From: a phage | Length of the DNA stretch: 64,000 nt | Sequence record: PZ166176.1 | Direction: 5' to 3' (one strand) | In this document: piece by piece, positions 10,999-26,596 of the stretch | Numbering within the stretch: the first letter of the stretch is position 1 | How the letters are laid out: the number at the start of each line of letters is the position of its first letter | Made by a program: the position numbers and the translations under genes | The notes under the pieces: generated by a model | What the model was told of the DNA's origin: nothing | Seen by the model: the letters and a program-made list of their open reading frames with translations, nothing else | The model's database searches: none

Positions 10999-11042
10999 TC
11001 AACAAAGGGGCGGCAACGCCCCACATCAGAAAGGAAAAGATT

Positions 11043-11279: not shown

Positions 11280-11334
11280 ACCATAAGCGCGGCGGTAACG
11301 CCCCATTAAACGCAATAGGAAGAGGCTAGAAAGC

Positions 11335-11619: not shown

Positions 11620-11621
11620 CC

Positions 11622-11756: not shown

Positions 11757-11765
11757 GATAAATAA

Positions 11766-11793
11766 ACAGGGCTTGTTTTTGTCCTGTTTTTTG
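11766..11793 (+). terminator. rho-independent terminator
   Basis: acagggcttgtttttgtcctgt plus tttttt. Confidence 0.7.
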
Positions 11794-11932
11794 TTATACT
11801 TATTGAACGGGCGGCACCTGGGAGCAGGGGGAAGATAATCACCGGACGACCCCGCTATATATTGATAGCTAACATCTATCAAACAACAAAACATCAAAGA
11901 GATAAACTATCAAATCTTTACAATCCTACCTA

Positions 11933-11991
11933 TTGACACCGGATCACGCTTACATTATCATTTATCACGTAGGGCGGGAATGTTTCCCGCC
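11933..11991 (+). promoter_or_regulatory. PeSL-like cassette
   Basis: TTGACA 11933-11938, hairpin gtagggcgggaatgtttcccgcc. Confidence 0.7.
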
Positions 11992-13249: not shown

Positions 13250-13264
13250 TTGACAACAAAACAA

Positions 13265-13291
13265 GGGGCGCACCAAGCGCCCTTTCTTTTT
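13265..13291 (+). terminator. rho-independent terminator (GGGCGCACCAAGCGCCC family)
   Basis: gggcgcaccaagcgccc plus tttcttttt. Confidence 0.7.
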
Positions 13292-13498
13292 GCCCGAACA
13301 ATGTTGATAGCTTTCGCCTATGAAAAACCGACACAGAACAAAATTGAATAAATCGCGGTATCGAGCTAATCAACCATTAAACGAATAACCATACCTCCCA
13401 GGGTAACAGGCTGTTAGAGAGCCATTTATAGCGGTTAAAATCGATCAACAACCAACAACAAACCATCAAAAACACCCTTTTACCTCCTTTCTAGTGCA

Positions 13499-13516
13499 AT
13501 GATAACCATTATCATC
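13499..13516. promoter_or_regulatory. Fur-box-like palindrome
   Basis: aatgataaccattatcat. Confidence 0.4.
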
Positions 13517-14056
13517 TATCCATGTTTATCTATGCAATATAAGTGCATAACTATAATGTTGATAATAGTTCGCAACAACTAACTAACCAACAACCTAAAA
13601 CAATAAGCAAACTAATCATAATCAAAGGAATAATAGCAAGATGATTGATAACGACAAACAATCAAACCATGATGAATACTAAGCAAGATAACGATAACAC
13701 GACAAAACAACCAACTAACGAACAATAACAAACGAAACCATTAAAATAATAACTATTGCCATAATAGTGACTGAATGAAATCATTACAAAACGAATCATT
13801 CCCAGGATCATCATTAGCACGCTATGCCGGACACATAGCGAGCTAATAATAAGCCAACTACACCCCAACAATCATAACCATCGGTGATGGTTATTTCTTG
13901 TTACTGCGTAGCTTGCAATGATTGCAAGCGTAATGACGCTTACACTCATTGCGCTGGCTTATTATTAGCATTATATGTAATTACCAAGATCATAACATTA
14001 GCGCAATAACAATAATCATTGTAATGGTTACAATATGAAATCATTAGCATGGCAAT

Positions 14057-14212
14057 AATTATTGGGGGCAATGGGAGGATGATTATCATCATTCCGATAC
14101 ATTGCACACTATGCACATAATAGAATAAAAGTCAATAATTTTGGGGGCGAATACTATCGCGTAGCGATATGTTGAGCACTAAGAAAAGAGATAAACCTTA
14201 ATCATGGGGGCG
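14057..14212. repeat. three direct repeats of a TGGGGGC core
   Basis: attattgggggcaatggg (14057), aattttgggggcgaatac (14135), aatcatgggggcgtaaat (14198); a second direct repeat ATGTTGAGCA at 14165 and 14248. Confidence 0.5.
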
Positions 14213-14330
14213 TAAATATCCGAGGATTGCCAACGGCGATCCGGTAGGATGTTGAGCATCTTCTCTTAAACGTAAATAAAATCAGAAAATTCTTGATTTA
14301 TTATGGTTTTTATGTTAATAAATGTTTAAA

Positions 14331-14349
14331 TAATAATCATTCTCATATG
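14331..14349. promoter_or_regulatory. Fur-box-like palindrome
   Basis: taataatcattctcatatg. Confidence 0.4.
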
Positions 14350-14420
14350 AATAATAGTCTGCTTGTCATGAGCGGGATTAATTGACATTGTTCCGTCATA
14401 TGATGAAGTTGCCAAGCCAT

Positions 14421-14451
14421 TGATAAATAAGTGTTTGTGTGATTTATAATC
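14421..14451 (+). promoter_or_regulatory. sigma70-like promoter (TTGATA-N18-TATAAT)
   Basis: ttgataaataagtgtttgtgtgatttataat; candidate promoter for the block starting at 14868. Confidence 0.4.
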
Positions 14452-14507
14452 AAGTGGCCCACCTTGTCGCTATGTTGGCATGAGCCTTGCATAAGTCATT
14501 GAATACG

Positions 14508-14526
14508 AATGATAATTATTCTCATT
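14508..14526. promoter_or_regulatory. Fur-box-like palindrome
   Basis: aatgataattattctcatt, about 55 nt downstream of the candidate promoter. Confidence 0.45.
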
Positions 14527-14867
14527 CGCATGATATTTGGGAATTGTCGCTGCGTGGACCTGACGGCCCGAAAATTCGCGTTAAGCACTTCTTACGTATG
14601 CGCCATGATTTTTGCCATATCATATTGATTCTATTAGATATTCTTGCCGTGATTGCCATGAAACAGGGTGTCCCGAAATAATCTCTCCCCGTAGATATTT
14701 TGGGTTACTTTTTATACAAGAGTGGGGTGTCAAAAATAATCGGTATATATGGGATAATTGATAGGGAATACCAATGATAAATGAATTGTAATTGTCGAGG
14801 ATTGATCGTAGGATGTTGGTGATTGATGATTGCCATGAAAGATGGCTAACGATGAGAGGAGATTATC

Positions 14868-15242
14868 ATGCAAGAGAGTAAAAATGTTCCGTTGAGTAGT
14901 GCAACATTGCTTCGCTTCTATAAAGCATGGATTGCTAACTACCCTGCAATGAATCGCACAACGAGTGGCTTATGTGGTTGTCTGGTAGATTATGTAGATG
15001 ATTTTGTTGGTGAGACAACTAGAGAAGAAGATAGAAGATGGCGGGATAGTTTGTTAGACCGTTTGAAATATGAAATGAGGAAACAATTTACATGTGCAGG
15101 GCTGGACTACAATCTTCCGTTCAATGCAGATTGCATGGATTACCTTTCAGAGTGTATAAACTTGGCGTGTCATACCAACACGTTACGTCTTCAATGGGTG
15201 AAAGATCGTATTGAAGATGCAAATAATGCTTGCATTGAATAA
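14868..15242 (+). CDS. member A of a five-copy paralogous early family (GLC...PF...WVK motif)
   Basis: 124 aa; FYKAWI...GLCGCL...LPFN...RLQWVKD; paralogs at 18770, 22108, 24953, 26258. Confidence 0.7.
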   Translation: MQESKNVPLSSATLLRFYKAWIANYPAMNRTTSGLCGCLVDYVDDFVGETTREEDRRWRDSLLDRLKYEMRKQFTCAGLDYNLPFNADCMDYLSECINLACHTNTLRLQWVKDRIEDANNACIE

Positions 15243-15301
15243 AAATGTCTGTATGATAGTTTGCATACCGCGCATAACAAACAGCTAATGAGGAGATTGG
15301 A

Positions 15302-15550
15302 ATGCATAACATGAAACGCATGAAAGTTCGTATAGAAGATCCGTGTGGGTATGAGGGATTAGAAGGTGCAACATTCCCACTCATCCTTGATGCTAAACTG
15401 GGTGACAAGGGGCTTGCCTATGTGCGATTCTCAACTATGATGCAAGTGGAAGGCTGGTGGTGGGATGAGGAAGATACGAAAGAAGGTCATGATTATAGTT
15501 TCTTCTCTCATGAGTATACGATTGTAGAGGAGACGAGTGATGATCTGTAA
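15302..15550 (+). CDS. small paralog family 2, member 1 (82 aa)
   Basis: KVRIEDPCGYEGL...FPLILDA...VEGWWWDEED..EG.DY.FF..EY.IV; paralogs at 15540 and 19480. Confidence 0.65.
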   Translation: MHNMKRMKVRIEDPCGYEGLEGATFPLILDAKLGDKGLAYVRFSTMMQVEGWWWDEEDTKEGHDYSFFSHEYTIVEETSDDL

Positions 15551-15758
15551 AATTCGTATTGAGCATAATTGTGGTTACTTAGGATTGCTTCATGTAGATT
15601 TTCCTGTTATATTGGATGCACATATTGGTTATGGCAGAAATGCATACGTGCAATTCACAACGATGAGCCATGTGCAAGGTTGGAAATGGGAAGAAGGGGA
15701 TACTGTTGAAGGAGGTGAGTATGTTTTCCTTCGTGATGAATATGAAATTGTCTATTAA
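15540..15758 (+). CDS. small paralog family 2, member 2 (72 aa)
   Basis: MICKIRIEHNCGYLGL...FPVILDA...VQGWKWEEGD..EG.EYVFL.DEYEIV. Confidence 0.65.
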   Translation: MICKIRIEHNCGYLGLLHVDFPVILDAHIGYGRNAYVQFTTMSHVQGWKWEEGDTVEGGEYVFLRDEYEIVY

Positions 15759-15761
15759 AGG

Positions 15762-16010
15762 TTGTGTGCAATGATCACACCACAACAGAATGAAGCAGCA
15801 ATGGATCTTCTTGATAGTTTGTATTTCGATAATTGGTACTCTGAATGTGAATGGATGAATATGCAAACTCTGAAAGAGAAGACAGAAGCGTTGATTACAG
15901 TAGATCAATTTCTTGCAGAGACGGAAAGAATGAATTATGATATGGCATCTCGCGCACGCCGCGCTTCCATCTTTAATAAAATGGTGGCATTATGGGGAGG
16001 TAGAAAATGA
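15762..16010 (+). CDS. hypothetical early protein (82 aa)
   Basis: ORF with SD. Confidence 0.6.
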   Translation: MCAMITPQQNEAAMDLLDSLYFDNWYSECEWMNMQTLKEKTEALITVDQFLAETERMNYDMASRARRASIFNKMVALWGGRK

Positions 16011-16474
16011 GCGAAAAACCAGTGAGAGCTTCCACAATATTGGAAGCATACCTGCAATGCGTTGTAGATTACGTCAAGAGAAACTCCAGCCTACTGGACG
16101 TCTACCGTGCAGATGATGGCGATGTTGGTATTGTCTATGTGAAACACACTTTATCCGCGCGTAATGAGGTTTTCCGTGCAAGTATGTTAGGGTGTGATCG
16201 TGTTCGTGTGAACTATTTGGACCCGAATTATCGCCATGCTCTTGAAGATATTGAAGATTATCTTCCTCGCTGCCCGACAGGTAATGCAAAAGTGGCAGAA
16301 GAAGCCCCACAAGGTGTTGATTATCGTGTAGCCTTGTGGAAAAAGGCACGTCAACTACAAGTGCTGAATGAAATGAAAGAAGAGATTGAAAAAGAACTGA
16401 AAGAAGATTTTGGTATGCTTCCAAAAGACGCTTTGAAATGGTATGATGAACTAGGAGGAGAAAGTTATGAATAA
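16007..16474 (+). CDS. hypothetical early protein (155 aa)
   Basis: Start overlaps the upstream stop. Confidence 0.65.
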   Translation: MSEKPVRASTILEAYLQCVVDYVKRNSSLLDVYRADDGDVGIVYVKHTLSARNEVFRASMLGCDRVRVNYLDPNYRHALEDIEDYLPRCPTGNAKVAEEAPQGVDYRVALWKKARQLQVLNEMKEEIEKELKEDFGMLPKDALKWYDELGGESYE

Positions 16475-16661
16475 AGGAACTACTGTATATTTAGTAACAA
16501 AGAATACCCCAGGCTGGAGCCAATGCAGCACTGTCCCTTACAAGATCTGTGCAACATTAGAACTAGCACAACGTGCAGAAGCAGAAGTGGATGCCATGCA
16601 ATACAGCTATGGTGAGATCATTCCTTTTACTCTTGAACAAGAAGGAGCACATCATGTTTAA
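16467..16661 (+). CDS. hypothetical early protein (64 aa)
   Basis: Overlap-coupled ORF. Confidence 0.55.
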   Translation: MNKGTTVYLVTKNTPGWSQCSTVPYKICATLELAQRAEAEVDAMQYSYGEIIPFTLEQEGAHHV

Positions 16662-17109
16662 AGTAGGGTTTACTTATAAATTCAAAAGCGTTGCTGACCA
16701 AGGAGATATGGCAACACATGACAAAGCAAATATTGCTGTTTGCCAAGCGATTGGAAACGAAGTTTTCAAAGTTATGAATACAGATGATAAGTATGGTCAT
16801 GTTCTTGAGTTTTATATCAATGGTACCCTCTATACAGCAGGTGTTACCCCAGGGTTTAATTCGTATACTTATTTGATTGATAACGAAGAATTTAAATATT
16901 TTGAAGAAGTAAAGGAGGAAACAATGGGTAAAGCAGAACCACAATGGCATGTTGTGATTGTAGGATCAGAGTGTGTAGATGTTTGTTCTAGTTTTGAAAA
17001 AGCTTCTGAAGTCGCTACAAAAGCTAAGAAGGATTATCCGTCGAAGACGGTTGAGATTTACGCTCGTGTTGCAGTAGCAAACGCCACAATCACTATTGAT
17101 AAGGAGTAA
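16654..17109 (+). CDS. tandem MFK-family protein 1 (151 aa)
   Basis: ATG 16654 with SD gaaggag; N-terminus MFKVGFTYKF shared with the two downstream genes. Confidence 0.65.
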   Translation: MFKVGFTYKFKSVADQGDMATHDKANIAVCQAIGNEVFKVMNTDDKYGHVLEFYINGTLYTAGVTPGFNSYTYLIDNEEFKYFEEVKEETMGKAEPQWHVVIVGSECVDVCSSFEKASEVATKAKKDYPSKTVEIYARVAVANATITIDKE

Positions 17110-17114
17110 AGCCA

Positions 17115-17570
17115 ATGTTCAAAGAAGGTCATGTCTACCGTTTCCAGGACGAAGATTATATGCGATTATATTCTACCTTTGATAACAGTATGGCTGCTAT
17201 CATTGGAGAGAATTTTTTCGAAGTGTTGAGCACTGATGCAAATGGTAATATCTTGTCAATTGTTGTGATAGGGAGAGACGGTGTTATCACTGCTAGTGAT
17301 GGGGATCGTTACATAATCAATTCTGCTCATATAGATTATTTTGTTGACGGTGGTATTCGTGGTGGTCGTGGAAAACCCCAAGAAGAACCTGTTGATACAA
17401 CAAAAGAAGAGTGGTATGTTGTAATGACTGATGACACCTGTATTTCTGGATTTGAAAGTTATGAAGAAGCTTTGAAAGAAGCAGCAGAGCATAAAATGGC
17501 TAATCCTACAGAAGAGGTTGAAGTTTATAAACGTTTGGTTGTTGCTACCATCGGCGTATCTTTTGTTTAA
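17115..17570 (+). CDS. tandem MFK-family protein 2 (151 aa)
   Basis: MFKEGHVYRF...; C-terminal W(H/Y)VV...V(E)VY block similar to gene 1. Confidence 0.65.
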   Translation: MFKEGHVYRFQDEDYMRLYSTFDNSMAAIIGENFFEVLSTDANGNILSIVVIGRDGVITASDGDRYIINSAHIDYFVDGGIRGGRGKPQEEPVDTTKEEWYVVMTDDTCISGFESYEEALKEAAEHKMANPTEEVEVYKRLVVATIGVSFV

Positions 17571-17581
17571 AAGGAGCTATT

Positions 17582-18019
17582 ATGTTCAAAGTTAATGCTG
17601 TTTACTGTTTCAAAAGTAAAGCTGCATGTGAAGCTTTCTCTATGATCTCTGATGAAAATTTCAAAATGGCAGCTTTGATTGAAGGGTCTTGTTTCCGCGT
17701 CGAAGATGTTAGTGAATCAGGGTCTGTTTGCTCATTGACTTTATTGGACAGCGGGGATATTATTGAAGCTGGACAGTATCCGTTCAGGAGTTGGGAGATA
17801 TTGTTAGCTCGCGGAGAGCGTAACTTTTTTATGTGCGTGTCTGCGGGGGAAGTTGTGAAAGAAACTAAGGATGTTTCTGTTTACAATTCTGAATTTATAA
17901 GTTATAGTGAGTATCAACATTTGGAAGGCATTGTTGGTCACTTGTTATCTCTGATTGACATTGAATGTGACCTGCCTGAATCATTGAAAGAAGAGTTGAA
18001 AGCATTAGATCTGTTATAA
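17582..18019 (+). CDS. tandem MFK-family protein 3 (145 aa)
   Basis: MFKVNAVYCF...; SD aaaggag. Confidence 0.65.
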   Translation: MFKVNAVYCFKSKAACEAFSMISDENFKMAALIEGSCFRVEDVSESGSVCSLTLLDSGDIIEAGQYPFRSWEILLARGERNFFMCVSAGEVVKETKDVSVYNSEFISYSEYQHLEGIVGHLLSLIDIECDLPESLKEELKALDLL

Positions 18020-18046
18020 TGTTTCGCACAACGAAAGGAGAATAAG

Positions 18047-18346
18047 ATGAATCTGACTGAACAGTTACGCCGTATTGCAAAAGAAGCTTCCTTCAACTTC
18101 CCTGTTGAAGAAGTGATCGAGACTTGTTTTGCTGAAGCACGAGCGGGAAACTCTTCAAGGAATTTCACGCCATCCGATTTTGGTTTGGATAATTCTCCTA
18201 CTCACCCAGGGGAAATCTACAATCAGGTGAAATGGATGGATGAAGCAGTAGCAATTCTTCGTGAGCGTGGGCTTATTGTTTATAAAGAAATGGATCTGAA
18301 CGGGGCATACGAGTGGATCACTATTGATTGGTCCGAGGTGAAATGA
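18047..18346 (+). CDS. hypothetical early protein (99 aa)
   Basis: SD aaaggagaat. Confidence 0.65.
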   Translation: MNLTEQLRRIAKEASFNFPVEEVIETCFAEARAGNSSRNFTPSDFGLDNSPTHPGEIYNQVKWMDEAVAILRERGLIVYKEMDLNGAYEWITIDWSEVK

Positions 18347-18579
18347 TGAAAGGTAACAAGATGAAAGTTAATCAAGTGCCGAGCGCATACACTTTATGGC
18401 TTGCGCGAGCGTTACACCAGACGATCAAAGACCCTAAGAAGCCAATGAAGAGTGGGAAGAAGTTTATGTCTAAGGGCAAAACAACCTTTGGCTTCACTCG
18501 TATGTCTGTCAAGATGAAAAGGCTGGGGTACAAGCCAAACTACGCTCGTTACCCTTCTGAATACAACTGGTTTGACTAA
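18343..18579 (+). CDS. hypothetical basic protein (78 aa)
   Basis: ATG 18343 with SD gaggtgaa; Lys-rich. Confidence 0.55.
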   Translation: MMKGNKMKVNQVPSAYTLWLARALHQTIKDPKKPMKSGKKFMSKGKTTFGFTRMSVKMKRLGYKPNYARYPSEYNWFD

Positions 18580-18592
18580 AAGGAGAAAGATT

Positions 18593-18769
18593 ATGGCTAC
18601 TTTTCAACAATTGAAAGATGTTTCACGTTTAGTAAGAAAAATCCGAGAAGCAGACGCTGCTGTGCGGAATGCATTAACGCCAGCAGAGCGTGAAGATCTT
18701 GAAGAGGAGGTGAAAACAGCCGAGAATGCTTTTGCTGTGTATCTTTCAACACTGTACACAGGAGGTTAA
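18593..18769 (+). CDS. hypothetical early protein (58 aa)
   Basis: ATG 18593 with SD aaaggagaaag. Confidence 0.55.
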   Translation: MATFQQLKDVSRLVRKIREADAAVRNALTPAEREDLEEEVKTAENAFAVYLSTLYTGG

Positions 18770-19084
18770 ATGTCAGAAGAACTTAAAGAGTTTTATCAGG
18801 CATATCATAACTGGCTGTTAGCTGGTGCTCCAGATAATAATCCTTTCTGGCATGATAAAGGATTATGTAGTTGCCTCTACCTTTGGACTGGTGGTTACGA
18901 TGATCTAAATTATGAAATGCAAATGCAATTTCGAGAAGCAGGGTTGTCTGAAGAATACCCGTTTGATGACGGAGACTGGTTTAAATATGATTTTGCACAA
19001 AGAAACGGGCTATTGCATTTGAATGCTGCCCGTATAAAATGGGTAAAAGATCATGCTACACAGGAGGATGTGCAATGCCAATAG
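18770..19084 (+). CDS. member B of the five-copy paralogous early family
   Basis: FYQAYHNWLLAGAP...GLCSCL...YPFD...RIKWVKD. Confidence 0.7.
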   Translation: MSEELKEFYQAYHNWLLAGAPDNNPFWHDKGLCSCLYLWTGGYDDLNYEMQMQFREAGLSEEYPFDDGDWFKYDFAQRNGLLHLNAARIKWVKDHATQEDVQCQ

Positions 19085-19275
19085 TGTTTAGTTTCTTGAT
19101 AATTGTTATGGTTGTTCTTTTCGCGGCATGGCTTTGGGATTTTGACCCAGGAGCAGCGCAGCAAAGAGCTACAGACTGGAAAGAACAATGTATTGTGCTC
19201 AAACATGAACGAAATGCGGAGAAATTTCTTGACCTAGAGTGTGATCGCCTTGTAAGATACAAGCAAGATAAATAA
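19075..19275 (+). CDS. small membrane-anchored protein (66 aa)
   Basis: ATG 19075 with SD caggagg; N-terminal transmembrane helix PIVFSFLIIVMVVLFAAWLW. Confidence 0.55.
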   Translation: MPIVFSFLIIVMVVLFAAWLWDFDPGAAQQRATDWKEQCIVLKHERNAEKFLDLECDRLVRYKQDK

Positions 19276-19289
19276 CCTTGAGGTGCAAA

Positions 19290-19478
19290 ATGGTAATAGA
19301 GATTAAACTTGAATATGCTGGGGCTGTTGCCCTGATCGCACAAACGCTTGGAGCAAAGATTGAAGAAGTGTATATCAATGCCTGGAGCGTAGAGATTGAT
19401 GTTCCTATGGACAACATCGCTAATCGCTTGCTGGTGGCAGAGTGTGAACGCACCAACATAATCTACAAAGGAGCATAA
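19290..19478 (+). CDS. hypothetical early protein (62 aa)
   Basis: ATG 19290 with SD gaggtgcaaa. Confidence 0.55.
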   Translation: MVIEIKLEYAGAVALIAQTLGAKIEEVYINAWSVEIDVPMDNIANRLLVAECERTNIIYKGA

Positions 19479-19479
19479 T

Positions 19480-19701
19480 ATGAAAATTAGAGTTTGCGAT
19501 GTATTGGGTTATGTTGGTTTTGAGAATGTTCAGATTCCTTTTGTTGTTGAAGCACATCTTGTTAGTGATGATATGACAACATTCTTTGTTACGATAGAAG
19601 AAATGTCCAAAGTTGAGGGATGGGAGTGGTTTGAAGAAGATGTTTGGGAAGGTTGTGATTACGTATTTTTCTCTGATGAAGTGAATGTTCTTTCGGAGTA
19701 G
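19480..19701 (+). CDS. small paralog family 2, member 3 (73 aa)
   Basis: MKIRVCDVLGYVGF...VEGWEWFEEDVWEGCDYVFFSDEV. Confidence 0.65.
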   Translation: MKIRVCDVLGYVGFENVQIPFVVEAHLVSDDMTTFFVTIEEMSKVEGWEWFEEDVWEGCDYVFFSDEVNVLSE

Positions 19702-19703
19702 GT

Positions 19704-19910
19704 ATGTCTTGTTTTACAAAAGCAGTGTCCATATGTAAGAAACAGTATGAAAGTGATTACGGAATATTTAATATTCCAGCAGATCATACGGAGTATTGTT
19801 CATGTGGTGGCAGGATGAAGAAAACAGTGATTTATGCGGATAGTGGAGACGAACTTGTTCCGGTTATGGTTTGCAAAGCTTGTCATTCTGTTAAAACATT
19901 AAAAGCGTAA
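19704..19910 (+). CDS. small Cys-rich protein, possible zinc ribbon (68 aa)
   Basis: C..C at the N-terminus, CSCGG and CKAC pairs. Confidence 0.55.
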   Translation: MSCFTKAVSICKKQYESDYGIFNIPADHTEYCSCGGRMKKTVIYADSGDELVPVMVCKACHSVKTLKA

Positions 19911-20005
19911 GGAGTCGGGACACCCGACGATTGGAGCTAAAAATTTTGCGTACAACCCTTTCCGCCCAACAGGGGCGCGTCGGGTAAATAAAGAGGAGAG
20001 TTTAT

Positions 20006-20404
20006 ATGAAAAAGATCATCGTAGGTTTCTTGTTACTCATTGCATCACTTGGAACAGCAAATGCGTCTCAAGTTTATGAGTGTGTGTCAGATGTGGTTGT
20101 TAAAAATCTGAAAGGTGAAGTGATTTCTGGTCCTAAGAAAATGGCTTCTGTTGTCATTAATAAAGATAACTCCTTTATCCTTAAAAATTCAGGTGGTGCT
20201 TTGATGAGTGGCATTCTGCAATACACAGGAGAAAAAAGTAAAGATGGTAGTGCTATGTACGGTTCACAACAGTTTATTGGCACTACTGAAGTAGTAATGA
20301 TGCGCACAGAGTATCGAGACACTTTGGCTTGGTTTGCATTTCTAAAAAATGATAAAACAATAACAAATGTTCTTACTCTAGAAGCTGATTGTACGCAACG
20401 ATAA
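20006..20404 (+). CDS. secreted or periplasmic protein with signal peptide (132 aa)
   Basis: MKKIIVGFLLLIASLGTANA signal-peptide-like; SD agaggagag. Confidence 0.65.
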   Translation: MKKIIVGFLLLIASLGTANASQVYECVSDVVVKNLKGEVISGPKKMASVVINKDNSFILKNSGGALMSGILQYTGEKSKDGSAMYGSQQFIGTTEVVMMRTEYRDTLAWFAFLKNDKTITNVLTLEADCTQR

Positions 20405-20414
20405 GGGGGTATTT

Positions 20415-20870
20415 GTGACTAAAGTGCGACATTATGCTGTAAACTGCAACGATGCTTGGCGTTTGTGTCCTGATGATCCGACAGAAGGCACGTTTGTAAG
20501 ATATGAGGATTATAAAGAGTTATCGGATGCTGTGATCGCATTGTTAACTGATATCCGTTCACGTTATCCAGGACAAGATTTCACTTGCCCTCACATCAAA
20601 CTTCTTGCCCTTCTGGTAGAAGGGGAGGAACAAGTAGAAGATGGATTCAAGCGTGTAGAGTATCAAGGTGAAACTTTAGAGGTTCCTGAATTTGTTAATT
20701 ATATTGCAACAGATTCGAATGGCGAGCGTTATGGTTACAGTCATAAACCGGAGATTCCAGATTTCGCTTATGCGTGGCGTATTCCTTATCAAGTTTTTAA
20801 TGCTGCGGATTACTGGTATTTAGGAGAAGGAGATAGCCGTAATTGGCGTGACTCCTTGGCTCAGGTTTAA
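20415..20870 (+). CDS. hypothetical early protein (151 aa)
   Basis: GTG start after SD aagggggt. Confidence 0.6.
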   Translation: MTKVRHYAVNCNDAWRLCPDDPTEGTFVRYEDYKELSDAVIALLTDIRSRYPGQDFTCPHIKLLALLVEGEEQVEDGFKRVEYQGETLEVPEFVNYIATDSNGERYGYSHKPEIPDFAYAWRIPYQVFNAADYWYLGEGDSRNWRDSLAQV

Positions 20871-20874
20871 TACT

Positions 20875-21138
20875 ATGAAAGAGACATTGCCAGCAGCATA
20901 CCGTTTGAATGATGAACGTATTTGGGAGTGGACCGACGTTTCTTGTTTTTACCCTGAAATAGTTCAATATTGGCGAGCGAAAGGGTGTGTTGTAGTTATC
21001 AACCCTTGTGGACCAGTAGATGAAGATTGTTTGTATCTCAATGGAAAGTGGCACAGTTATTGTCGCTGGCCTTTTGAGTGGATGTGTAAAGAAGATCTCC
21101 CAGAAGGTTGGGAGTATCCAAAAGCAAATAGGAGATAA
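20875..21138 (+). CDS. hypothetical Cys/Trp-rich protein (87 aa)
   Basis: ORF; start uncertain (ATG 20875 or GTG 20848). Confidence 0.5.
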   Translation: MKETLPAAYRLNDERIWEWTDVSCFYPEIVQYWRAKGCVVVINPCGPVDEDCLYLNGKWHSYCRWPFEWMCKEDLPEGWEYPKANRR

Positions 21139-21139
21139 T

Positions 21140-21502
21140 ATGTCTAAAGATTTTGTTGAAGTGTTTGTCAAAGACGAAGAAACTGGTTTAGGCACAGGTT
21201 TCATTTGCGAAGAAACCTTTAAGCGTGAACAAGAAAAAGCTATTCTTATGCACCGCTATGATCACGCATTAGAACAATGGAAAAATGCAGAACAAAAATG
21301 CAAAAACCTTTACGCAGAAAATAGAAAACTACAAGATCAAATGGAGTTGTTAGCTATCAGTTTACGATCTCTCATTTTGGCTGTAGAAGATGGTTTTAAA
21401 AATCCAGATGGTTTTCCTGTGAGCGATATTGAGCATGATTTGTATCTTGCTCGTGGTGCTTACTTTTATGTTAAACAGAAGCCTGTAGAAGGAGAGAAAT
21501 GA
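21140..21502 (+). CDS. hypothetical early protein (120 aa)
   Basis: ATG 21140 with SD aataggag; possible coiled-coil. Confidence 0.6.
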   Translation: MSKDFVEVFVKDEETGLGTGFICEETFKREQEKAILMHRYDHALEQWKNAEQKCKNLYAENRKLQDQMELLAISLRSLILAVEDGFKNPDGFPVSDIEHDLYLARGAYFYVKQKPVEGEK

Positions 21503-21678
21503 TGGAAGAAAAACTGGAACGTATTATCGAGTTAGCCATGTCTATTGGCTACGACGATTGTTTTCTCCAAACTATTGGAGAAACACAGGACGATTACGAC
21601 TCTTGGGTGAAAGAGTTGGAAGAACTCAAAACTTCCTTGATTGCTGACTTTGCTGAAGCAGAGGAGGATGAATAATGT
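21502..21678 (+). CDS. 58-aa acidic small protein
   Basis: MMEEKLERIIELAMSIGYDD...; ATGA overlaps at both ends; below the track cut-off. Confidence 0.5.
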
Positions 21679-21902
21679 CGGATTATAACTGGTATGAACT
21701 TGAAGCTGTTTGTCAGTTTTATGATTCAATAGTTCTACGTGATCCAATCTGTCAAGAATTGAGTCGCCGTGCAAGTGCATTGGCAATCAATGTTAAAGTG
21801 CACGATTGGAACGCAGATCTGGAAAAAGAATTGGAATTCCTTTTGGAAACAACCCGTGTCTTCCATAAAGTGTTCCCTGAATGGTTTGAGATGGAGGAAT
21901 AA
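21675..21902 (+). CDS. hypothetical early protein (75 aa)
   Basis: Overlap-coupled ORF. Confidence 0.6.
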   Translation: MSDYNWYELEAVCQFYDSIVLRDPICQELSRRASALAINVKVHDWNADLEKELEFLLETTRVFHKVFPEWFEMEE

Positions 21903-21904
21903 GC

Positions 21905-22117
21905 ATGTGGATTGTCCGTCTTAAGTATGATGGCAAGTTTCCGTGGGAGAAAGATGTTTGTGCCTGTGATTCAGCAGCACATGCCAAAGCAGCGGGTCAG
22001 GCAGTAGTTGACATGTATAACAACACTTCCGTTGATCCAGAAATGGCAGGTGTTACAATGAGCATGTTCACTTACTATTCTTTTGAGGTTTACTATCATG
22101 AAGGAGAGTGGAAATGA
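21905..22117 (+). CDS. hypothetical early protein (70 aa)
   Basis: SD ggaggaataag. Confidence 0.6.
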   Translation: MWIVRLKYDGKFPWEKDVCACDSAAHAKAAGQAVVDMYNNTSVDPEMAGVTMSMFTYYSFEVYYHEGEWK

Positions 22118-22434
22118 GCGAAGAACTATTAACATTTTACCGCACGTATTTGGCATGGTTGGAAGCTGGTGCTCCTGAAGGTGAACCGTTCACCCGTCGC
22201 ACAGGCTTGTGCTCAAACCTCTATGATTTTTACGACATGGGAGAAAGCGAACGATACGAACATGTACTGGATGAAATGCATGAGCAGTTCTACCTCAAAG
22301 ATTTGGTTATGGTGTTGCCTTTCAACAGTAATTTTGGAAAGTACACCTTAGAAGCGGAAAAAAGCCGTTGTCATTTGAATGTGGATCGTGTGAACTGGGT
22401 AAAAGAACGTGTAGCAGAAGAAATAATTGGTTGA
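22108..22434 (+). CDS. member C of the five-copy paralogous early family
   Basis: FYRTYLAWLEAGAP...GLCSNL...LPFN...RVNWVKE. Confidence 0.7.
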   Translation: MEMSEELLTFYRTYLAWLEAGAPEGEPFTRRTGLCSNLYDFYDMGESERYEHVLDEMHEQFYLKDLVMVLPFNSNFGKYTLEAEKSRCHLNVDRVNWVKERVAEEIIG

Positions 22435-22461
22435 CAGAAGGATCTGTCTTTGTCATAATCA
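22431..22461 (+). promoter_or_regulatory. internal sigma70-like promoter (TTGACAGAAG...)
   Basis: ttgacagaaggatctgtctttgtcataat. Confidence 0.45.
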
Positions 22462-22488
22462 TCTCATCGAAACAGAGAGGAGAAAATC

Positions 22489-22902
22489 ATGAAAAAGTTT
22501 ATTTGCACCCGTTCCACTAACAGTGATATCCTTGTAGGTAAGGTTATCAAAGGAGAACTCTTCCATGCAAACGGTAAGAAATATATTCTGCTGAAAGATT
22601 CTTTCAACGGGGAATATCCGCGCTGCACTTTCTTCAATTACAACACTCCATTTGCTTTAGAAGGAGATGCTTGGGAATGGGCTGAACTCAATCCTTGTTG
22701 TGAGGAAGAAGAATCTATGTTCTTAGGTTTAAACGTTTACCGTGTAGATTACACCATGTGCGGAGCGGAACATTCTGTTCGCGTAGAAGCCGAATCCAAA
22801 CTACAAGCACCTTTCAAGGCAGGATTGACTTTGGGTCATTGTTTGGCAAACATTGAAGATGTTGTGATCCAAAGGGTTGTTTTAGAGAAAGAGGCTATTT
22901 GA
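22489..22902 (+). CDS. hypothetical early protein (137 aa)
   Basis: SD agagaggag. Confidence 0.65.
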   Translation: MKKFICTRSTNSDILVGKVIKGELFHANGKKYILLKDSFNGEYPRCTFFNYNTPFALEGDAWEWAELNPCCEEEESMFLGLNVYRVDYTMCGAEHSVRVEAESKLQAPFKAGLTLGHCLANIEDVVIQRVVLEKEAI

Positions 22903-22931
22903 CAGAAGACGGCACAATATTTAAAATATAA
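22902..22931 (+). promoter_or_regulatory. internal sigma70-like promoter (TTGACAGAAG-N-TAAAAT)
   Basis: ttgacagaagacggcacaatatttaaaat; shares TTGACAGAAG with the 22431 promoter. Confidence 0.45.
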
Positions 22932-22955
22932 AGATTAACCACAAAGGAGATAGAT

Positions 22956-23255
22956 ATGCAAGTTGAAGACCTAATCAAAATTTTGAATCAAGCCAAAGAG
23001 AAAGGGGCTATTAAGGATTGGAAACGTGAAACAAGTGAAGACTTATCTCACTGTTGCCGAGAGTTTTACATCGAAGGTATTGCTGACGATCATTATACTA
23101 TTGAATGGTATATTAACTTAATGACTCTTAAACACGGTTCATTTGAGGTTTGGTTTGATGACATTGATGTAAATGGTTTTCATCCTGGCTATAAAATCGC
23201 TATGCAGTTATCTTATCGTAGAGAAGTTGTAGCACATTTGGGTTTACATAACTAA
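22956..23255 (+). CDS. hypothetical early protein (99 aa)
   Basis: SD acaaaggag. Confidence 0.65.
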   Translation: MQVEDLIKILNQAKEKGAIKDWKRETSEDLSHCCREFYIEGIADDHYTIEWYINLMTLKHGSFEVWFDDIDVNGFHPGYKIAMQLSYRREVVAHLGLHN

Positions 23256-23265
23256 GGAGAAAAGA

Positions 23266-23589
23266 ATGCAAGCAGTTGTTAACGAAGCTATTATGAACTT
23301 ATCCTTCTTGTTAGCTGGTTTAGGAGGTGTCCTCATAGGTTTGGCTCTTATCTGGTGTATTCGTCGATTAATCGGGTACCGACAAAAAGGTGTTTCATGT
23401 TTTGTATCTTACAATTTTACAACTGCTTACAGCAATGAGGTGGGGTCTGGTAACGCTCAAGCATTTTTACCAACATATCCTCCTACAGTGGAAGATATTC
23501 GAAACTTGGAAGTAGAACTTATGGAACTAAGTGATAATTATACATCTCTCGTTATTCAAAATATTTTTCGACTAAAACAGGAGTCGTGA
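23266..23589 (+). CDS. membrane protein (107 aa)
   Basis: Hydrophobic helix LSFLLAGLGGVLIGLALIWCI. Confidence 0.6.
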   Translation: MQAVVNEAIMNLSFLLAGLGGVLIGLALIWCIRRLIGYRQKGVSCFVSYNFTTAYSNEVGSGNAQAFLPTYPPTVEDIRNLEVELMELSDNYTSLVIQNIFRLKQES

Positions 23590-23802
23590 ATGAAGGCACA
23601 TTACCCTCATCCCTTTGATCCTAAAAACAAAGCCGTAATTCTTCGTCAGTGGCAACGGGTTTGTCGTACTAAATGTCCAATCAATAGCCCACACAATGTA
23701 AACAAGGACTATCTTGGGACATTTGTTGAATACACTTACATAGACAAAAACAAGCGTAAACAACATGTCGAGGAATACTGCTTAAGAGTAGAATGGCTGT
23801 AA
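23590..23802 (+). CDS. hypothetical early protein (70 aa)
   Basis: Overlap-coupled ORF. Confidence 0.6.
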   Translation: MKAHYPHPFDPKNKAVILRQWQRVCRTKCPINSPHNVNKDYLGTFVEYTYIDKNKRKQHVEEYCLRVEWL

Positions 23803-23814
23803 ATAATAAATACC

Positions 23815-23845
23815 TTGACAAGTGTTTATTCGTTTTGTAAAGTGA
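23815..23845 (+). promoter_or_regulatory. sigma70-like promoter upstream of the recombinase gene
   Basis: ttgacaagtgtttattcgttttgtaaagt. Confidence 0.45.
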
Positions 23846-23872
23846 GAATACAGCAATAGTTTAGGAGTGGTT

Positions 23873-24544
23873 ATGAAAAAGTTTGTTGTTTACAGTCGTC
23901 TTTCTAAACAGAAAAAAGGTGAGGCACAATATGGTATGGAGAGCCAAGAGAACGATATTCGTTACTTCTTAGACTCTGTGCCTGATGCTGAAGTTATTGG
24001 TCAATTTTCTGAATACTATTCGGGTAAGGGCGATTGGAAGCAACGTAAGGAACTGGTCAAAGCGGTTGAAATGTGTAAAGCTACCGGAGCAACTTTATTG
24101 GTAGCTAAAGTTGACCGCTTGGGTCGTAACAACGCCTCCGTAGCAACTCTTCTAGAAATGATCGATGTTAAGATAGCCATTATGCCAGACGCAGATAAAA
24201 TGGTTATACAGCTTCTGTCTGTTCTGGCTGAACAAGAAGTTAGAGGTATTGCTGATCGTATTAAAAAGGGTCTTGCTGTAGCAAAAAGCAAAGGTGTTTT
24301 ATTAGGTAGTGCTAATCCTAAAACTGCCGCTGCACGTAGAAAAGGAAAAATGGAATACAACTCTGTTAAAGCAGACGCTTTTGCAGAGACATTCCGTGAA
24401 CGTTTGGAGATCCTTAGAGATTTAAATACACCTTACAAAACTATTGCTGAAAAATTCAATAGTAAGAAAATAGCAACAGCACGTGGTGGTAAATGGGATG
24501 CTAAAACTGTTTCTCGTTTGTGTGCCAGACTTAACATTAAATAG
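23873..24544 (+). CDS. serine recombinase (resolvase/invertase catalytic domain)
   Basis: VYSRLSKQ (catalytic Ser region), LLVAKVDRLGRN, LLSVLAEQEVRGIADRIKKGLAVAKSKG resemble the Gin/Hin/TnpR catalytic domain; C-terminal GGKWDAKTVSRL resembles the recombinase domain of large serine recombinases. Confidence 0.75.
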   Translation: MKKFVVYSRLSKQKKGEAQYGMESQENDIRYFLDSVPDAEVIGQFSEYYSGKGDWKQRKELVKAVEMCKATGATLLVAKVDRLGRNNASVATLLEMIDVKIAIMPDADKMVIQLLSVLAEQEVRGIADRIKKGLAVAKSKGVLLGSANPKTAAARRKGKMEYNSVKADAFAETFRERLEILRDLNTPYKTIAEKFNSKKIATARGGKWDAKTVSRLCARLNIK

Positions 24545-24552
24545 GAGAGGAT

Positions 24553-24975
24553 ATGAAACAAGAAAATGAATCTGTAGATCACTTAATCATGCTGTCAGCC
24601 CTTTTTGCAGGATGGGACGTATTTTTTGAAAATTTGTTCAATTCTGCTACAGATGGTTCCGATTTTATGCGCCAATTTAAACAACGAACTGTTGAGGACT
24701 ATACCTTCTATTCAGGTCTGATTGAAAAAGGTTACGAAGATACAAATACAACACTCACCATTAAAGTTTTAGATGTGATGTTTAGTGTTATAGATGCTAT
24801 CGACGAAAGTCTTCCGATCCTAGACAATTGTAATACGAAAGTTTATGTTTACAAAATAGCTCGTGCTTATGTGTCTGCAAACAGTTGTCTTCTTTCCACC
24901 CAGATTGCCGTGAACAATCTTGCCAACTTGTTTGATGAAGGAGAAACTTTTTATGACAATCGATTTGAAGTGTAA
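24553..24975 (+). CDS. hypothetical early protein (140 aa)
   Basis: SD ataggagagg. Confidence 0.65.
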   Translation: MKQENESVDHLIMLSALFAGWDVFFENLFNSATDGSDFMRQFKQRTVEDYTFYSGLIEKGYEDTNTTLTIKVLDVMFSVIDAIDESLPILDNCNTKVYVYKIARAYVSANSCLLSTQIAVNNLANLFDEGETFYDNRFEV

Positions 24976-25318
24976 GAGGATTCTTTTAGATTTCTATAAT
25001 AATTGGTTAGAACACCTCCGTCTCTTTCCAAGAGAAAGTGGTTACGCTGATGTTGGCTTATGCCGAGGTCTGCGTATGTATATAAGTGATGAATTTCGGG
25101 CAGAGCATTCTTTAGCATATTCTGTTTATGGTATGCAATTAGCCAGTTTTGAAAACGCTGGCTTAGATACAACTTTCCCATTTAACACAGCAAAATCTTT
25201 TGAGCAAGAGTGTAAGGAAAAACGTTGCATGTTTAATGAAAAACGTGTACAGTGGGTTAAGGATCAAGTTAAACAACTGGAACAAGAGTTGGATTTCTTC
25301 TATGATGAGGCAGAATAA
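24953..25318 (+). CDS. member D of the five-copy paralogous early family
   Basis: ATG 24953 with SD gaaggag; LDFYNNWLEH...GLCRGL...FPFN...RVQWVKD. Confidence 0.65.
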   Translation: MTIDLKCKRILLDFYNNWLEHLRLFPRESGYADVGLCRGLRMYISDEFRAEHSLAYSVYGMQLASFENAGLDTTFPFNTAKSFEQECKEKRCMFNEKRVQWVKDQVKQLEQELDFFYDEAE

Positions 25319-25590
25319 TGGATAGACAAACCTTAAAAACAATGGCAGATGCCACTAATTCCCCGTACTTTGAAAAAGTAAGTAAATTGGTAGCTCAAGC
25401 CGCAGAGGAAGGATATTATAACATAAACATCCACAACCCAAGTCTTATACTAGAAATGCCAAGTGATAAGAAGATACAAGAGAGTATCTGTGAAGGTATT
25501 GTTAGTTACTGGCGCGAGCGTGGGTGTGGTGCAAACATGGCTTTAGACAGTGCAAACATTGTAAGATATATAAATATTTCTTGGGGGTGA
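25318..25590 (+). CDS. hypothetical early protein (90 aa)
   Basis: Overlap-coupled ORF. Confidence 0.6.
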   Translation: MDRQTLKTMADATNSPYFEKVSKLVAQAAEEGYYNINIHNPSLILEMPSDKKIQESICEGIVSYWRERGCGANMALDSANIVRYINISWG

Positions 25591-25594
25591 TTTT

Positions 25595-26206
25595 ATGATT
25601 CAATGCACTCATATCCAAATTACTTGGAGAGATGAACTTTACCATTTGGGGCAATTTACTGTAGGGGAAACATACCCTATCATTAAACATAATCCTAACA
25701 TCGCAAACTTTGACAGGATGGTTCTTGTTGAGGACGATCTAGGTCAAACTTATTCTTTAGATCTAAAATATCCGTTTTCTTACGGCTACGATTGGATCGT
25801 TACTTTTGAAGACGCGGAGGAAAATAAAACAATGAACGAAAAAAATTCTTGGTATTATCGTTGTGAACTGCCGCCAGTAGGTGAAAAGGTTATCTTTGTT
25901 CCTGATTTGGAAAGATATTCTTGGGACAGTTCTTATTCTATTCCTAAAGAAGGAACAGAAGTTGAAGTTATTGCACATCGCACAACTTCGCATGGTAACG
26001 ATGTAGCAGTTGTTTTCTGGGATGATGAAGGCGCTGCTTGTGCAGGTGGCTTTGTTGCAGGTAATTTTGAACCCCTGCCAGATCCTTTGAAGGAGGCAAT
26101 TTTAGGCGTAGCTTCTTTTGGACTCTCTTACACATCTGCACAAGAGATTGTAGAAGGTATTTTAAACGGTACCGTTCCAAACGAAATTTTTAAACAGATT
26201 AAATAA
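25595..26206 (+). CDS. hypothetical early protein (203 aa)
   Basis: SD ttgggggtga. Confidence 0.65.
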   Translation: MIQCTHIQITWRDELYHLGQFTVGETYPIIKHNPNIANFDRMVLVEDDLGQTYSLDLKYPFSYGYDWIVTFEDAEENKTMNEKNSWYYRCELPPVGEKVIFVPDLERYSWDSSYSIPKEGTEVEVIAHRTTSHGNDVAVVFWDDEGAACAGGFVAGNFEPLPDPLKEAILGVASFGLSYTSAQEIVEGILNGTVPNEIFKQIK

Positions 26207-26257
26207 TAGTTGCACCCCGTTCTGCGGGGTGTTATTGTATATGTAAAGGAGGCGCTA

Positions 26258-26596
26258 ATGTATTACACTGAAGACTACATACTGTATAACTTTTTTAAAG
26301 GCTGGTTGAAATGGGCTGAACAAGCTCCTGTCGGAGATTGTGTTTTTCCTTGGGATTCTCGTCAAGGTTTGTGTCGTTGTTTGGAAGATTGGCTTATAAC
26401 CACAAACTACAATTCAGAAACTAAGAAATCTACATCAAATCGATTAAAAATGTTGTTTGAAGAAGATGGTTTAGATCCAATTTATCCTTTCGGTGAGGAA
26501 AGTTTCCACAATGGTCTTTTCCTTGGCACTCAACATTATGATAAAGATCGTGTAGATTGGGTAAAAGAAAAGGTAGCACAGTATGAATGGGGTTAA
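26258..26596 (+). CDS. member E of the five-copy paralogous early family
   Basis: ATG 26258 with SD aaaggaggcg; FFKGWLKWAEQAP...GLCRCL...YPFG...RVDWVKE; hairpin caccccgttctgcggggtg upstream. Confidence 0.65.
   Translation: MYYTEDYILYNFFKGWLKWAEQAPVGDCVFPWDSRQGLCRCLEDWLITTNYNSETKKSTSNRLKMLFEEDGLDPIYPFGEESFHNGLFLGTQHYDKDRVDWVKEKVAQYEWG

What the first reader, a model, noticed from the sequence alone, without database searches (positions are those of the whole stretch)
14868..26596. Five-member paralogous early protein family with conserved GLC ... PF ... (R)xWVK(D/E) motifs
ORFs at 14868, 18770, 22108, 24953 and 26258 (104-128 aa) share the ordered blocks (F/Y)Y..WL..(G)AP, GLC(x)(C/N/G)L, (Y/L/F)PF(N/D/G) and R(L/I/V)(Q/K/N/D)WVK(D/E), with the rest diverged. 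Five diverged copies of a small early protein within 12 kb is the pattern seen for phage host-takeover or anti-defence families under diversifying selection. I cannot assign this family to any known domain.
Basis: seen in the sequence. Interest (0 to 1): 0.6.

Follow-up and report, generated by a model that had tools for sequence, protein, structure and literature searches.

The report
Uncharacterised five-copy phage accessory protein family
This phAPEC8-like E. coli phage carries five old, diverged copies of a small five-helix protein (the family of phage N4 gp3) that is very common in virulent phages, has no known function or solved structural relative, and is a reasonable but unproven candidate for a host-manipulation or anti-defence factor.

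Summary
Five + strand genes (14868, 18770, 22114, 24953, 26258) form one family. Leave-one-out profile E-values are 1e-16 to 1e-23, and no sixth copy is in the window. The window is a Phapecoctavirus, 97-98% identical to several E. coli phages.

The family equals PHROG 2510 / pVOG 7392, both of unknown function. It includes phage N4 gp3 and PTXU04 gp85-87, and spans at least 1,812 sequence clusters. There is no Pfam, NCBIfam, PADLOC or PDB sequence match.

The claim of diversifying selection is not supported:
- Orthologue pN/pS is about 0.10, the same as neighbouring genes.
- The paralogues are old lineages.
- Diversity comes from gene gain and loss (5-9 copies in near-identical phages) and from recombination between paralogues. 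Gene 14868 is itself such a hybrid.

Published knock-down of the three PTXU04 copies gave no fitness defect.

The function remains unknown. My best guess is a dispensable cytoplasmic factor that acts on a host component, either a defence or a takeover target. It would act through a conserved polar site with an invariant Cys and Arg, with specificity set by a variable helical hairpin. Interest is moderate.

The parts
14868..15242 (+). Family member 1 (124 aa). A natural hybrid: codons 1-11 (MQESKNVPLSS) come from tandem paralogue A, and the rest comes from paralogue B of relatives such as ETEC-TG.
   Evidence: ORF. Profile E 1.7e-38. Window 14249-14900 equals L001 3174-3825 and window 14887-15316 equals L001 4140-4569, so a 314-bp deletion joins two adjacent paralogues at a 14-bp microhomology. 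AF2 pLDDT 91.5, five helices.
14887..14900 (+). Crossover microhomology (ATTCCGTTGAGYAGT, encoding the PLSS region) where paralogues A and B recombined.
   Evidence: Overlapping BLASTN segments. Sequence and translation comparison.
18770..19084 (+). Family member 2 (104 aa, GAP/GLCSCL type). The ATG directly follows the stop of the upstream gene.
   Evidence: Its closest relative, P0076 from Drexlerviridae phages, is 48.5% identical, against 37.7% for the best paralogue in the window.
22114..22434 (+).
   Evidence: Shine-Dalgarno site before 22114, and a 321-nt annotation in relatives. AF2 pLDDT 93.3, pTM 0.86, with helices at 5-19, 34-41, 47-63, 76-84 and 92-107.
24953..25318 (+). Family member 4 (121 aa). 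It lacks the common His (Met instead).
26258..26596 (+). Family member 5 (112 aa), the most divergent copy. It is preceded by a terminator-like hairpin at 26212-26232.
21658..21665 (+). Deletion junction. Relatives carry about 640 bp more here, including a further family member (ETEC-TG L001 11985-12311) that is absent from the window.

Best explanation
The five genes encode old paralogues of a widespread, phage-restricted, roughly 100-residue five-helix protein (PHROG 2510; the N4 gp3 family).

Shown:
- The proteins are soluble, mildly acidic and lack a signal peptide.
- The genes are translationally packed into a long + strand block of accessory genes.
- Each orthologue is under purifying selection.
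- The repertoire differs between near-identical phages through gene loss, gene gain and recombination at the conserved motifs.
- Homologues sit in early regions of N4-like and T7-like phages.
- Homologues are dispensable on a laboratory host.

Inferred:
- The protein works in the host cytoplasm on a host component, most likely a defence system or a takeover target.
- It acts through a conserved polar site made of the invariant Cys (first turn of helix 2), the invariant Arg (start of helix 5) and the nearby conserved Asn, His, Gln and Glu, together with the PF loop.
- The length-variable helix 2-helix 3 hairpin gives each paralogue its own specificity, so an array of paralogues widens the range of targets or hosts.
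For: - Family reality.
- Breadth: 1,812 clusters at 50% identity with E<=1e-3. tblastn finds 254 phage records with 619 places, covering Stephanstirmvirinae, Vequintavirinae, Drexlerviridae, Schitoviridae, Autographiviridae and jumbo Burkholderia phages. Only 1 of 72,556 plasmids matches.
- Position in early regions: N4 gp3 (early status of gp1, gp2, gp15 and gp16 in PMC4496689); JG068 gp5, upstream of the early terminator; an N4-like contig, between Gp2 and RNAPII.
- Arrays and tandem fusions: three tandem genes in PTXU04, seven in contig L128, and polypeptides with two or three domains.
- Dispensability: PTXU04_00085/86/87 are 'Not Fit' in a CRISPRi-ART knock-down screen (PMC11879866 supplements).
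- Repertoire flux: 5, 6, 7, 7 and 9 copies in phages that are mostly >90% identical across this block (phiWec186, with 9 copies, is more diverged), forming at least 13 orthogroups.
- Natural chimeras with crossovers at PLSS and at AGLDYN-PFN.
- Purifying selection: pN/pS 0.10.
- Conserved site: across 120 diverse members F10, C35, P71, F72 and R94 are invariant; N91 is 95%, Q60 92%, E56 89% and H89 79% conserved.
- Confident fold, with C35 in the first turn of helix 2.
- Indel hotspot in the helix 2-helix 3 connector: the C35-to-E56 segment spans 14-34 residues, and both helices are longer in the model of gene 14868.
- Cytoplasmic orientation: some homologues have N-terminal transmembrane helices with positive-inside topology (sequences; this is inference).
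Against: - No experiment or homology links any member to a defence system or host target.
- A strongly conserved polar site together with purifying selection is less typical of arms-race binders than of enzymes or of proteins that bind a conserved ligand.
- The knock-down result is negative evidence only. It comes from one laboratory strain, and three possibly redundant copies were silenced one at a time.
- Early expression in this phage is not shown. The 15 repeated promoter-hairpin modules of the window lie at 2.7-12 kb, upstream of the block.
Confidence: 0.4

Rival explanations
1. The domain is a small thiol-dependent enzyme or covalent trap. The invariant cysteine at the N-terminus of helix 2 would be the nucleophile, assisted by His89, Asn91, Gln60, Glu56 and Arg94. 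It would modify or cleave a host small molecule, protein or nucleic-acid adduct. This concerns the biochemical mode and could coexist with an anti-defence role.
For: - Cys35 is 120/120 invariant in cytoplasmic proteins that are otherwise 24% identical on average per column, where a purely structural Cys usually drifts to Ala, Ser or Val.
- It lies in the first helical turn, a position typical of activated cysteines (general knowledge of thioredoxin-fold enzymes, papain and PTPs).
- Three of the five window copies, and 15/120 overall, carry C-x-C.
- The conserved polar set plus purifying selection fits catalysis.
Against: - His89 is only 79% conserved. It is Met in gene 24953, whose orthologues are nevertheless constrained (pN/pS 0.08).
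- The fold is an all-helical bundle of about 100 residues with no similarity to any solved enzyme.
- HHpred by others returned 'unknown'.
Confidence: 0.2
2. The proteins serve the phage's own programme, for example as cofactors or regulators of phage transcription or replication, like the neighbouring N4 early proteins gp1 and gp2. They would not act on host defence.
For: - N4 gp3 lies directly after gp1 and gp2, which are RNAPII cofactors (PMC4496689).
Against: - The family occurs in phages with unrelated transcription strategies: T7-like, T1-like, rV5-like and jumbo phages.
- Copy number varies from 5 to 9 between near-identical phages.
- Knock-down of three copies in PTXU04 had no fitness effect.
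- Acidic pI (4.5-5.1 here) argues against DNA binding.
Confidence: 0.12
3. The proteins sequester a small signalling molecule of host immunity, in the way the sponges Tad1/Tad2/Acb2 do. The conserved aromatic and Arg/Asn/Gln residues would form the pocket, and different paralogues would bind different signals.
For: - Small size, many invariant aromatic residues (F10, Y11, F72, W97) plus R94, N91 and Q60.
- Purifying selection on a conserved site.
- Several paralogues per genome.
Against: - No fold similarity to any solved sponge.
- No evidence of oligomerisation or ligand binding.
- The idea rests on analogy only.
Confidence: 0.08
4. The proteins are DNA-mimic anti-restriction proteins of the Ocr/ArdA type.
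For: They are small, probably early and acidic, with net charge -4.5 to -10 and pI 4.5-5.1 in the window.
Against: - Family pI ranges from 4.05 to 9.83 (median 5.28), so acidity is not a family trait.
- There is no fold match to Ocr, ArdA or other mimics in the PDB.
- The conserved residues are aromatic and polar, not a patterned array of Asp and Glu.
Confidence: 0.04

Closest known systems
PHROG 2510 (with related PHROGs 6418, 27059 and 2176) and pVOG VOG7392
   Same: This is the same family. All five window proteins match phrog_2510 at E 3e-25 to 9e-32, and all 120 diverse members match both 2510 and 6418. Phage inny's record labels three members VOG7392.
   Different: These are automatic clusters with 'unknown function'. 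They give no mechanism, structure or name.
Phage N4 gp3 (YP_950481, NC_008720 1214-1528)
   Same: A member of the family (profile E 1.8e-21), with the motifs FL..Y..WL..GA, GLC, LPFN and RINWIK. It lies in the early left-end region between gp2 and the RNAPII genes (PMC4496689).
   Different: N4 carries a single copy, and it is about 32% identical to the window proteins. I found no published function in the searchable library.
Phage PTXU04 gp85, gp86 and gp87
   Same: Three tandem members (E 1e-26 to 2e-32). This shows the same multi-copy habit.
   Different: They have been examined experimentally. HHpred annotation returned 'Unknown', and CRISPRi-ART knock-down classed them 'Not Fit' (fitness -1.5 to -2.3), meaning no detectable requirement on the laboratory host (PMC11879866 supplementary files 8 and 16). 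The window copies have not been tested.
Known small early anti-defence proteins with solved structures (Ocr, ArdA/ArdB/KlcA, Tad1/Tad2, Acb2, anti-CRISPRs and others)
   Same: They share the lifestyle: small, often acidic, encoded in accessory or early regions, dispensable on permissive hosts, and patchy between related phages.

Membership tests
PHROG 2510 / N4 gp3-like family (uncharacterised) | Significant full-length profile match | tested here: met
   phrog_2510 E 2.6e-25 to 9.2e-32 over about 105 residues for all five. 120/120 diverse members match. N4 gp3 is recovered by the family profile at E 1.8e-21.
PHROG 2510 / N4 gp3-like family (uncharacterised) | Shared fold | tested here: met
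   AF2 models of two window members (pLDDT 93.3 and 91.5) have the same five helices. BFVD models of members from JG068, RG-2014, BcepSaruman and others superpose at TM 0.65-0.84.
Any curated domain family (Pfam-A, NCBIfam, PADLOC) | Match at or near the curated threshold | tested here: not met
   No hit for the five. 0 of 120 members hit at E<=0.01, and no family is shared by more than one member even at E<=5.
Any protein of solved structure | Sequence-profile or fold similarity to a PDB chain | tested here: not met
Ocr/ArdA-type DNA mimics | Strongly and uniformly acidic surface across the family, and the mimic fold | tested here: not met
   Family pI 4.05-9.83, median 5.28. No fold match.
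Immune-signal sponges (Tad1, Tad2, Acb2) | Fold similarity | tested here: not met
   No PDB match.
Immune-signal sponges (Tad1, Tad2, Acb2) | Binding of a signalling nucleotide | not testable with these tools
   This needs biochemistry.
Cysteine-dependent enzymes | Invariant nucleophile plus an invariant general base | tested here: inconclusive
   Cys35 is invariant (120/120) and sits at a helix N-terminus. His89 is only 79% conserved and is absent from gene 24953.
Early genes of the phage | Transcription in the early period | not testable with these tools
   The position of homologues in N4-like and T7-like early regions supports it. No transcriptome for a Phapecoctavirus was found.
Genes under diversifying selection | Raised dN/dS relative to neighbouring genes | tested here: not met
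   Pooled pN/pS is 0.10 for the family against 0.12 for the other 41 genes called in the block. The per-gene range is 0.02-0.33. Site-specific tests were not possible with six genomes.

The most novel reading that the evidence does not exclude
The N4 gp3 / PHROG 2510 family is a new, very widespread class of phage counter-defence or host-takeover effector. It has a fold not yet seen in solved structures and an invariant, helix-capped reactive cysteine. It would be an enzyme or ligand trap whose paralogue arrays and motif-guided recombination act as a built-in way to diversify specificity.
Probability: 0.3. Interest if true: 0.75.

Novelty: new member of a known kind. Interest (0 to 1): 0.45.

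Why it matters
The family covers at least 1,812 sequence clusters at 50% identity. It is present, often in several copies, in virulent phages of alpha-, beta- and gamma-proteobacteria. These include the model phage N4 and the phAPEC8-like and rV5-like phages that are used or considered for therapy.

Assigning a function would annotate thousands of 'hypothetical proteins'. It could also explain differences in host range between phages that are otherwise nearly identical, because the repertoire (5-9 copies) is one of the few things that differ between them.

The confident model without any solved relative makes the family a clean target for structure determination. The invariant Cys and Arg give immediate mutants to test.

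Tried and rejected
1. Bacterial genomes:
- The search for related loci on genome contigs failed twice because no stretch of the alignment was conserved enough.
- A degenerate DNA pattern for R(I/V/M)QWVKD returned 120 loci. Presence or absence in bacterial chromosomes and prophages is therefore unresolved.

2. The word-indexed protein search reached only 37 and 22 close relatives. The exhaustive profile search was needed.

3. Atd1, the anti-TIR gene reported for Phapecoctavirus, is a MazG-like pyrophosphatase and is unrelated.

4. The label 'protein ea8.5' in a relative's record belongs to a different paralogue family, not to this one.

5. Literature searches for N4 gp3, locus tags of members, phrog_2510 and Phapecoctavirus transcriptomes found nothing on function. 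The N4 gp8 paper could not be opened.

6. The afdb50 fold library was unavailable, so similarity to uncharacterised cellular proteins was not tested.

7. No consistent partner gene was seen next to the five copies (inspection).

8. A recent in-situ duplication was rejected, because each paralogue has closer relatives in other phages.
Full report
**What the window is.**
The 13 kb around the finding is 96-98% identical to many Escherichia phages of the genus Phapecoctavirus (Stephanstirmvirinae, about 150-kb myoviruses related to phAPEC8). In these records essentially every gene in the region is 'hypothetical protein'. The finding lies in a long + strand block of small, tightly packed ORFs (about 14.8-30.2 kb). 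GC skew is positive there, and the strand switches at about 30.2 kb.

**The observation.**
- The five ORFs are present.
- A profile of the five finds only these five among all 670 six-frame ORFs of the window (E 1e-38 to 1e-46; next best 0.48).
- Leave-one-out profiles recover each omitted member at E 5e-17 to 7e-23. The similarity is therefore far beyond chance.
- Shine-Dalgarno sites and the annotations of relatives support starts at 14868, 18770, 22114 (ATG, not the GTG at 22108), 24953 and 26258.

**How large the family is.**
- All five match PHROG 2510 (E 1e-25 to 1e-32) and, more weakly, PHROGs 6418, 27059 and 2176. All four are 'unknown function'. One relative's record labels members pVOG VOG7392.
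- An exhaustive profile search of 1.84 billion cluster representatives found 1,812 proteins at E<=1e-3 and 812 at E<=1e-10. Most are single domains of 95-130 residues. About twenty of the best 150 carry two tandem domains, and one carries three (Burkholderia jumbo phages BcepSauron and BcepSaruman).
- Occasional fusions occur to DUF551 (phage Av-05) or to N-terminal transmembrane helices.
- tblastn with one window protein finds 254 phage records and 619 places. The hosts are Escherichia, Klebsiella, Salmonella, Erwinia, Pectobacterium, Rhizobium, Achromobacter, Delftia, Ralstonia and Burkholderia. Only one of 72,556 plasmids matches.
- No source gives any member a name other than 'hypothetical' or 'uncharacterized'.

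**Where homologues sit.**
- N4 gp3 is a member. It lies between gp2 and the RNAPII genes gp15 and gp16, all of which are early products (PMC4496689).
- In the T7-like Burkholderia phage JG068 the member is gp5. It lies downstream of the annotated host promoters and upstream of the early terminator.
- In an N4-like metagenomic contig the member lies between Gp2 and the RNA polymerase gene.
- PTXU04 has three members in tandem, and a 69-kb contig has seven.
- For the window's own phage I found no transcriptome. The 15 copies of a promoter-plus-hairpin module in the window all lie at 2.7-12.0 kb, upstream of the block. 'Early' is therefore plausible here but not shown.

**No known domain and no known fold.**
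- Pfam, NCBIfam and PADLOC give nothing for the five.
- None of 120 diverse members hits a Pfam family at E<=0.01, and no family is shared by more than one member even at E<=5.
- Sequence profiles against all PDB chains give nothing.
- AlphaFold2 with a 28-sequence alignment gives a confident model for the 22108 protein: mean pLDDT 93.3, pTM 0.86, and five helices at residues 5-19, 34-41, 47-63, 76-84 and 92-107.
- The model of the 14868 protein shows the same architecture, with longer helices 2 and 3 (pLDDT 91.5).
- Foldseek against 350,542 chains finds nothing below E 1.9, with TM<=0.37.
- Against predicted viral structures the model matches only uncharacterised phage proteins (15 hits at E<=1e-3, TM 0.65-0.84). 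Weaker matches extend to Pseudomonas KPP10/PAK_P-like phages.
- Independent work agrees. Manual HHpred annotation of the PTXU04 copies gave 'Unknown'. A pipeline combining HMMs and structure left the copies of phage EF1-1 unnamed.
- The afdb50 library was not available.

**Conservation pattern.**
- In 120 members whose mean column identity is 24%, F10, C35, P71, F72 and R94 are invariant (numbering of the 108-residue form).
- L7, Y11, G33, L34, W97 and V98 are at least 97% conserved. L66, F61 and N91 are at least 95%. Q60 is 92%, E56 89% and H89 79%.
- Mapped on the model, the hydrophobic residues line one face of helices 1, 3 and 5. The polar ones lie at the start of helix 2 (G-L-C), in the helix 3-helix 4 loop (P-F-N), in the turn before helix 5 (H-x-N) and at the start of helix 5 (R).
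- I could not obtain coordinates, so their closeness in space is an inference.
- Length variation concentrates in the helix 2-helix 3 connector. The C35-to-E56 segment spans 14-34 residues, and 79 of 120 sequences have an insertion after residue 45.
- The window proteins are mildly acidic (pI 4.5-5.1). The family ranges from pI 4.05 to 9.83.

**How the family evolves.**
- Copy number differs between close relatives: 5 in the window, 6 in Ro121c4YLVW, 7 in phAPEC8 and ETEC-TG, 9 in phiWec186, and at least 4 in the Justusliebigvirus inny. Together they form at least 13 orthogroups at 70% identity.
- The window lacks two copies that relatives have. One was removed with about 640 bp at 21658-21665. 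The other was lost by recombination between two adjacent paralogues.
- That recombination made gene 14868 a hybrid. Its first 11 codons come from paralogue A and the rest from paralogue B, joined at a 14-bp microhomology that encodes the PLSS region.
- A second natural chimera (P0020) has its crossover at the conserved AGLDYN-PFN motif. The conserved motifs thus act as recombination points.
- Each orthologue is constrained. Pooled pN/pS is 0.10 (128 synonymous and 53 non-synonymous differences; 0.02-0.33 per gene), against 0.12 for the other genes of the block. These are uncorrected Nei-Gojobori proportions from pairwise comparisons with five relatives, so they give a coarse but clear picture.
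- Each window paralogue is closer to proteins from other phages than to its best paralogue in the window. For example, the 18770 protein is 48.5% identical to a Drexlerviridae protein and 37.7% identical within the window.
- The copies are therefore old lineages that are shuffled, lost and gained. They are not recent duplicates under positive selection.

**Experimental information.**
In the CRISPRi-ART study (PMC11879866), the three PTXU04 members were each knocked down and classed 'Not Fit' (fitness -1.99, -1.51 and -2.32). They are therefore not required on the laboratory host. Redundancy between the three copies was not addressed.

**Interpretation.**
The combination of features is the usual signature of phage accessory genes that deal with the host rather than with virion production:
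- early-region position in several phage families;
- dispensability;
- a patchy, fast-changing repertoire;
- arrays and tandem fusions;
- near-absence from plasmids.

I therefore favour a cytoplasmic factor that acts on a host component, either a defence or a takeover target (confidence about 0.4). It would use a conserved site centred on Cys35 and Arg94, and the variable helix 2-helix 3 hairpin would act as the specificity element.

The invariant cysteine at a helix N-terminus and the purifying selection keep an enzymatic or covalent mode open (about 0.2). This mode is compatible with the same biological role. The other rivals are weaker:
- A role in the phage's own transcription or replication is unlikely, given the spread across phages with unrelated strategies and the variable copy number.
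- DNA mimicry is contradicted by the basic members and by the fold searches.
- A signal-sponge role rests on analogy only.

**Novelty and verdict.**
The family is already catalogued as automatic clusters of unknown function, and its members are annotated as hypothetical proteins in hundreds of records. The window therefore adds members to a known, uncharacterised family of the familiar class of small accessory phage proteins.

This analysis adds the following:
- the link to N4 gp3 and PTXU04 gp85-87;
- the size of the family;
- a confident fold without any solved relative;
- the invariant Cys/Arg site;
- the mode of diversification, which is flux and motif-guided recombination rather than positive selection.

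That makes the family a good, well-defined candidate for functional work, but not yet a surprising result. Interest is 0.45.

Noticed in passing
window 2727-11991, + strand (e.g. 4594-4669, 5380-5455, 8628-8703, 10341-10416): There are fifteen copies of a roughly 75-nt module. Each has a sigma-70-like promoter (TTGACA, 17 nt, TAtaaT-like), a conserved hairpin beginning RTAGGGCGG...CCGCC at the likely transcript start, and a ribosome-binding site with ATG, and each sits ahead of a small ORF. The core motif occurs 15 times against 0.19 expected. All copies are on the + strand, and none lies elsewhere in the window. This is probably the phage's strong early transcription units. The role of the conserved 5' hairpin is unknown.
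   Followed up: partly
window 15302-15550, 15540-15758, 19480-19701 (+): A second paralogous family of proteins of about 73-82 residues (pairwise E 1e-12 to 5e-22). Two copies are adjacent, directly after family member 1, and the third follows member 2. A relative's record calls the orthologue 'protein ea8.5', but Pfam gives no hit.
   Followed up: partly
window 16591-17109, 17115-17570, 17582-18019 (+): A third set of adjacent paralogues of about 145-172 residues. The first two are clearly related (E 7e-13). The third is only weakly related (E 0.006-0.02). There is no significant Pfam hit apart from a sub-threshold DUF2782 match.
   Followed up: partly
window 23873-24544 (+): A serine recombinase / DNA invertase (Resolvase domain, E 5e-18) lies in the middle of the accessory block of a virulent phage. 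It is conserved in relatives with pN/pS of 0.01. Its target was not looked for.
   Followed up: no
window ~13290-14860: An A+T-rich stretch of about 1.5 kb with no convincing ORF lies just upstream of the block. It follows a strong bidirectional terminator-like hairpin at 13263-13285. It is left unannotated in phAPEC8, and in ETEC-TG it is filled with doubtful short - strand ORFs. It contains only short imperfect repeats and has no Rfam match.
   Followed up: partly
window 21658-21665 and 14887-14900: Two indel junctions relative to close relatives each remove one family member. The block also shows patches of only 72-90% identity (15302-18589) within otherwise 95-98% identical genomes. This indicates mosaic exchange of accessory genes.
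   Followed up: yes
public records matching the window: Five records named 'Campylobacter phage' (for example MG065656, 146 kb, host given as Campylobacter jejuni) match this E. coli phage block and carry family members at the same identity as Justusliebigvirus phages. The host label looks doubtful.
   Followed up: no
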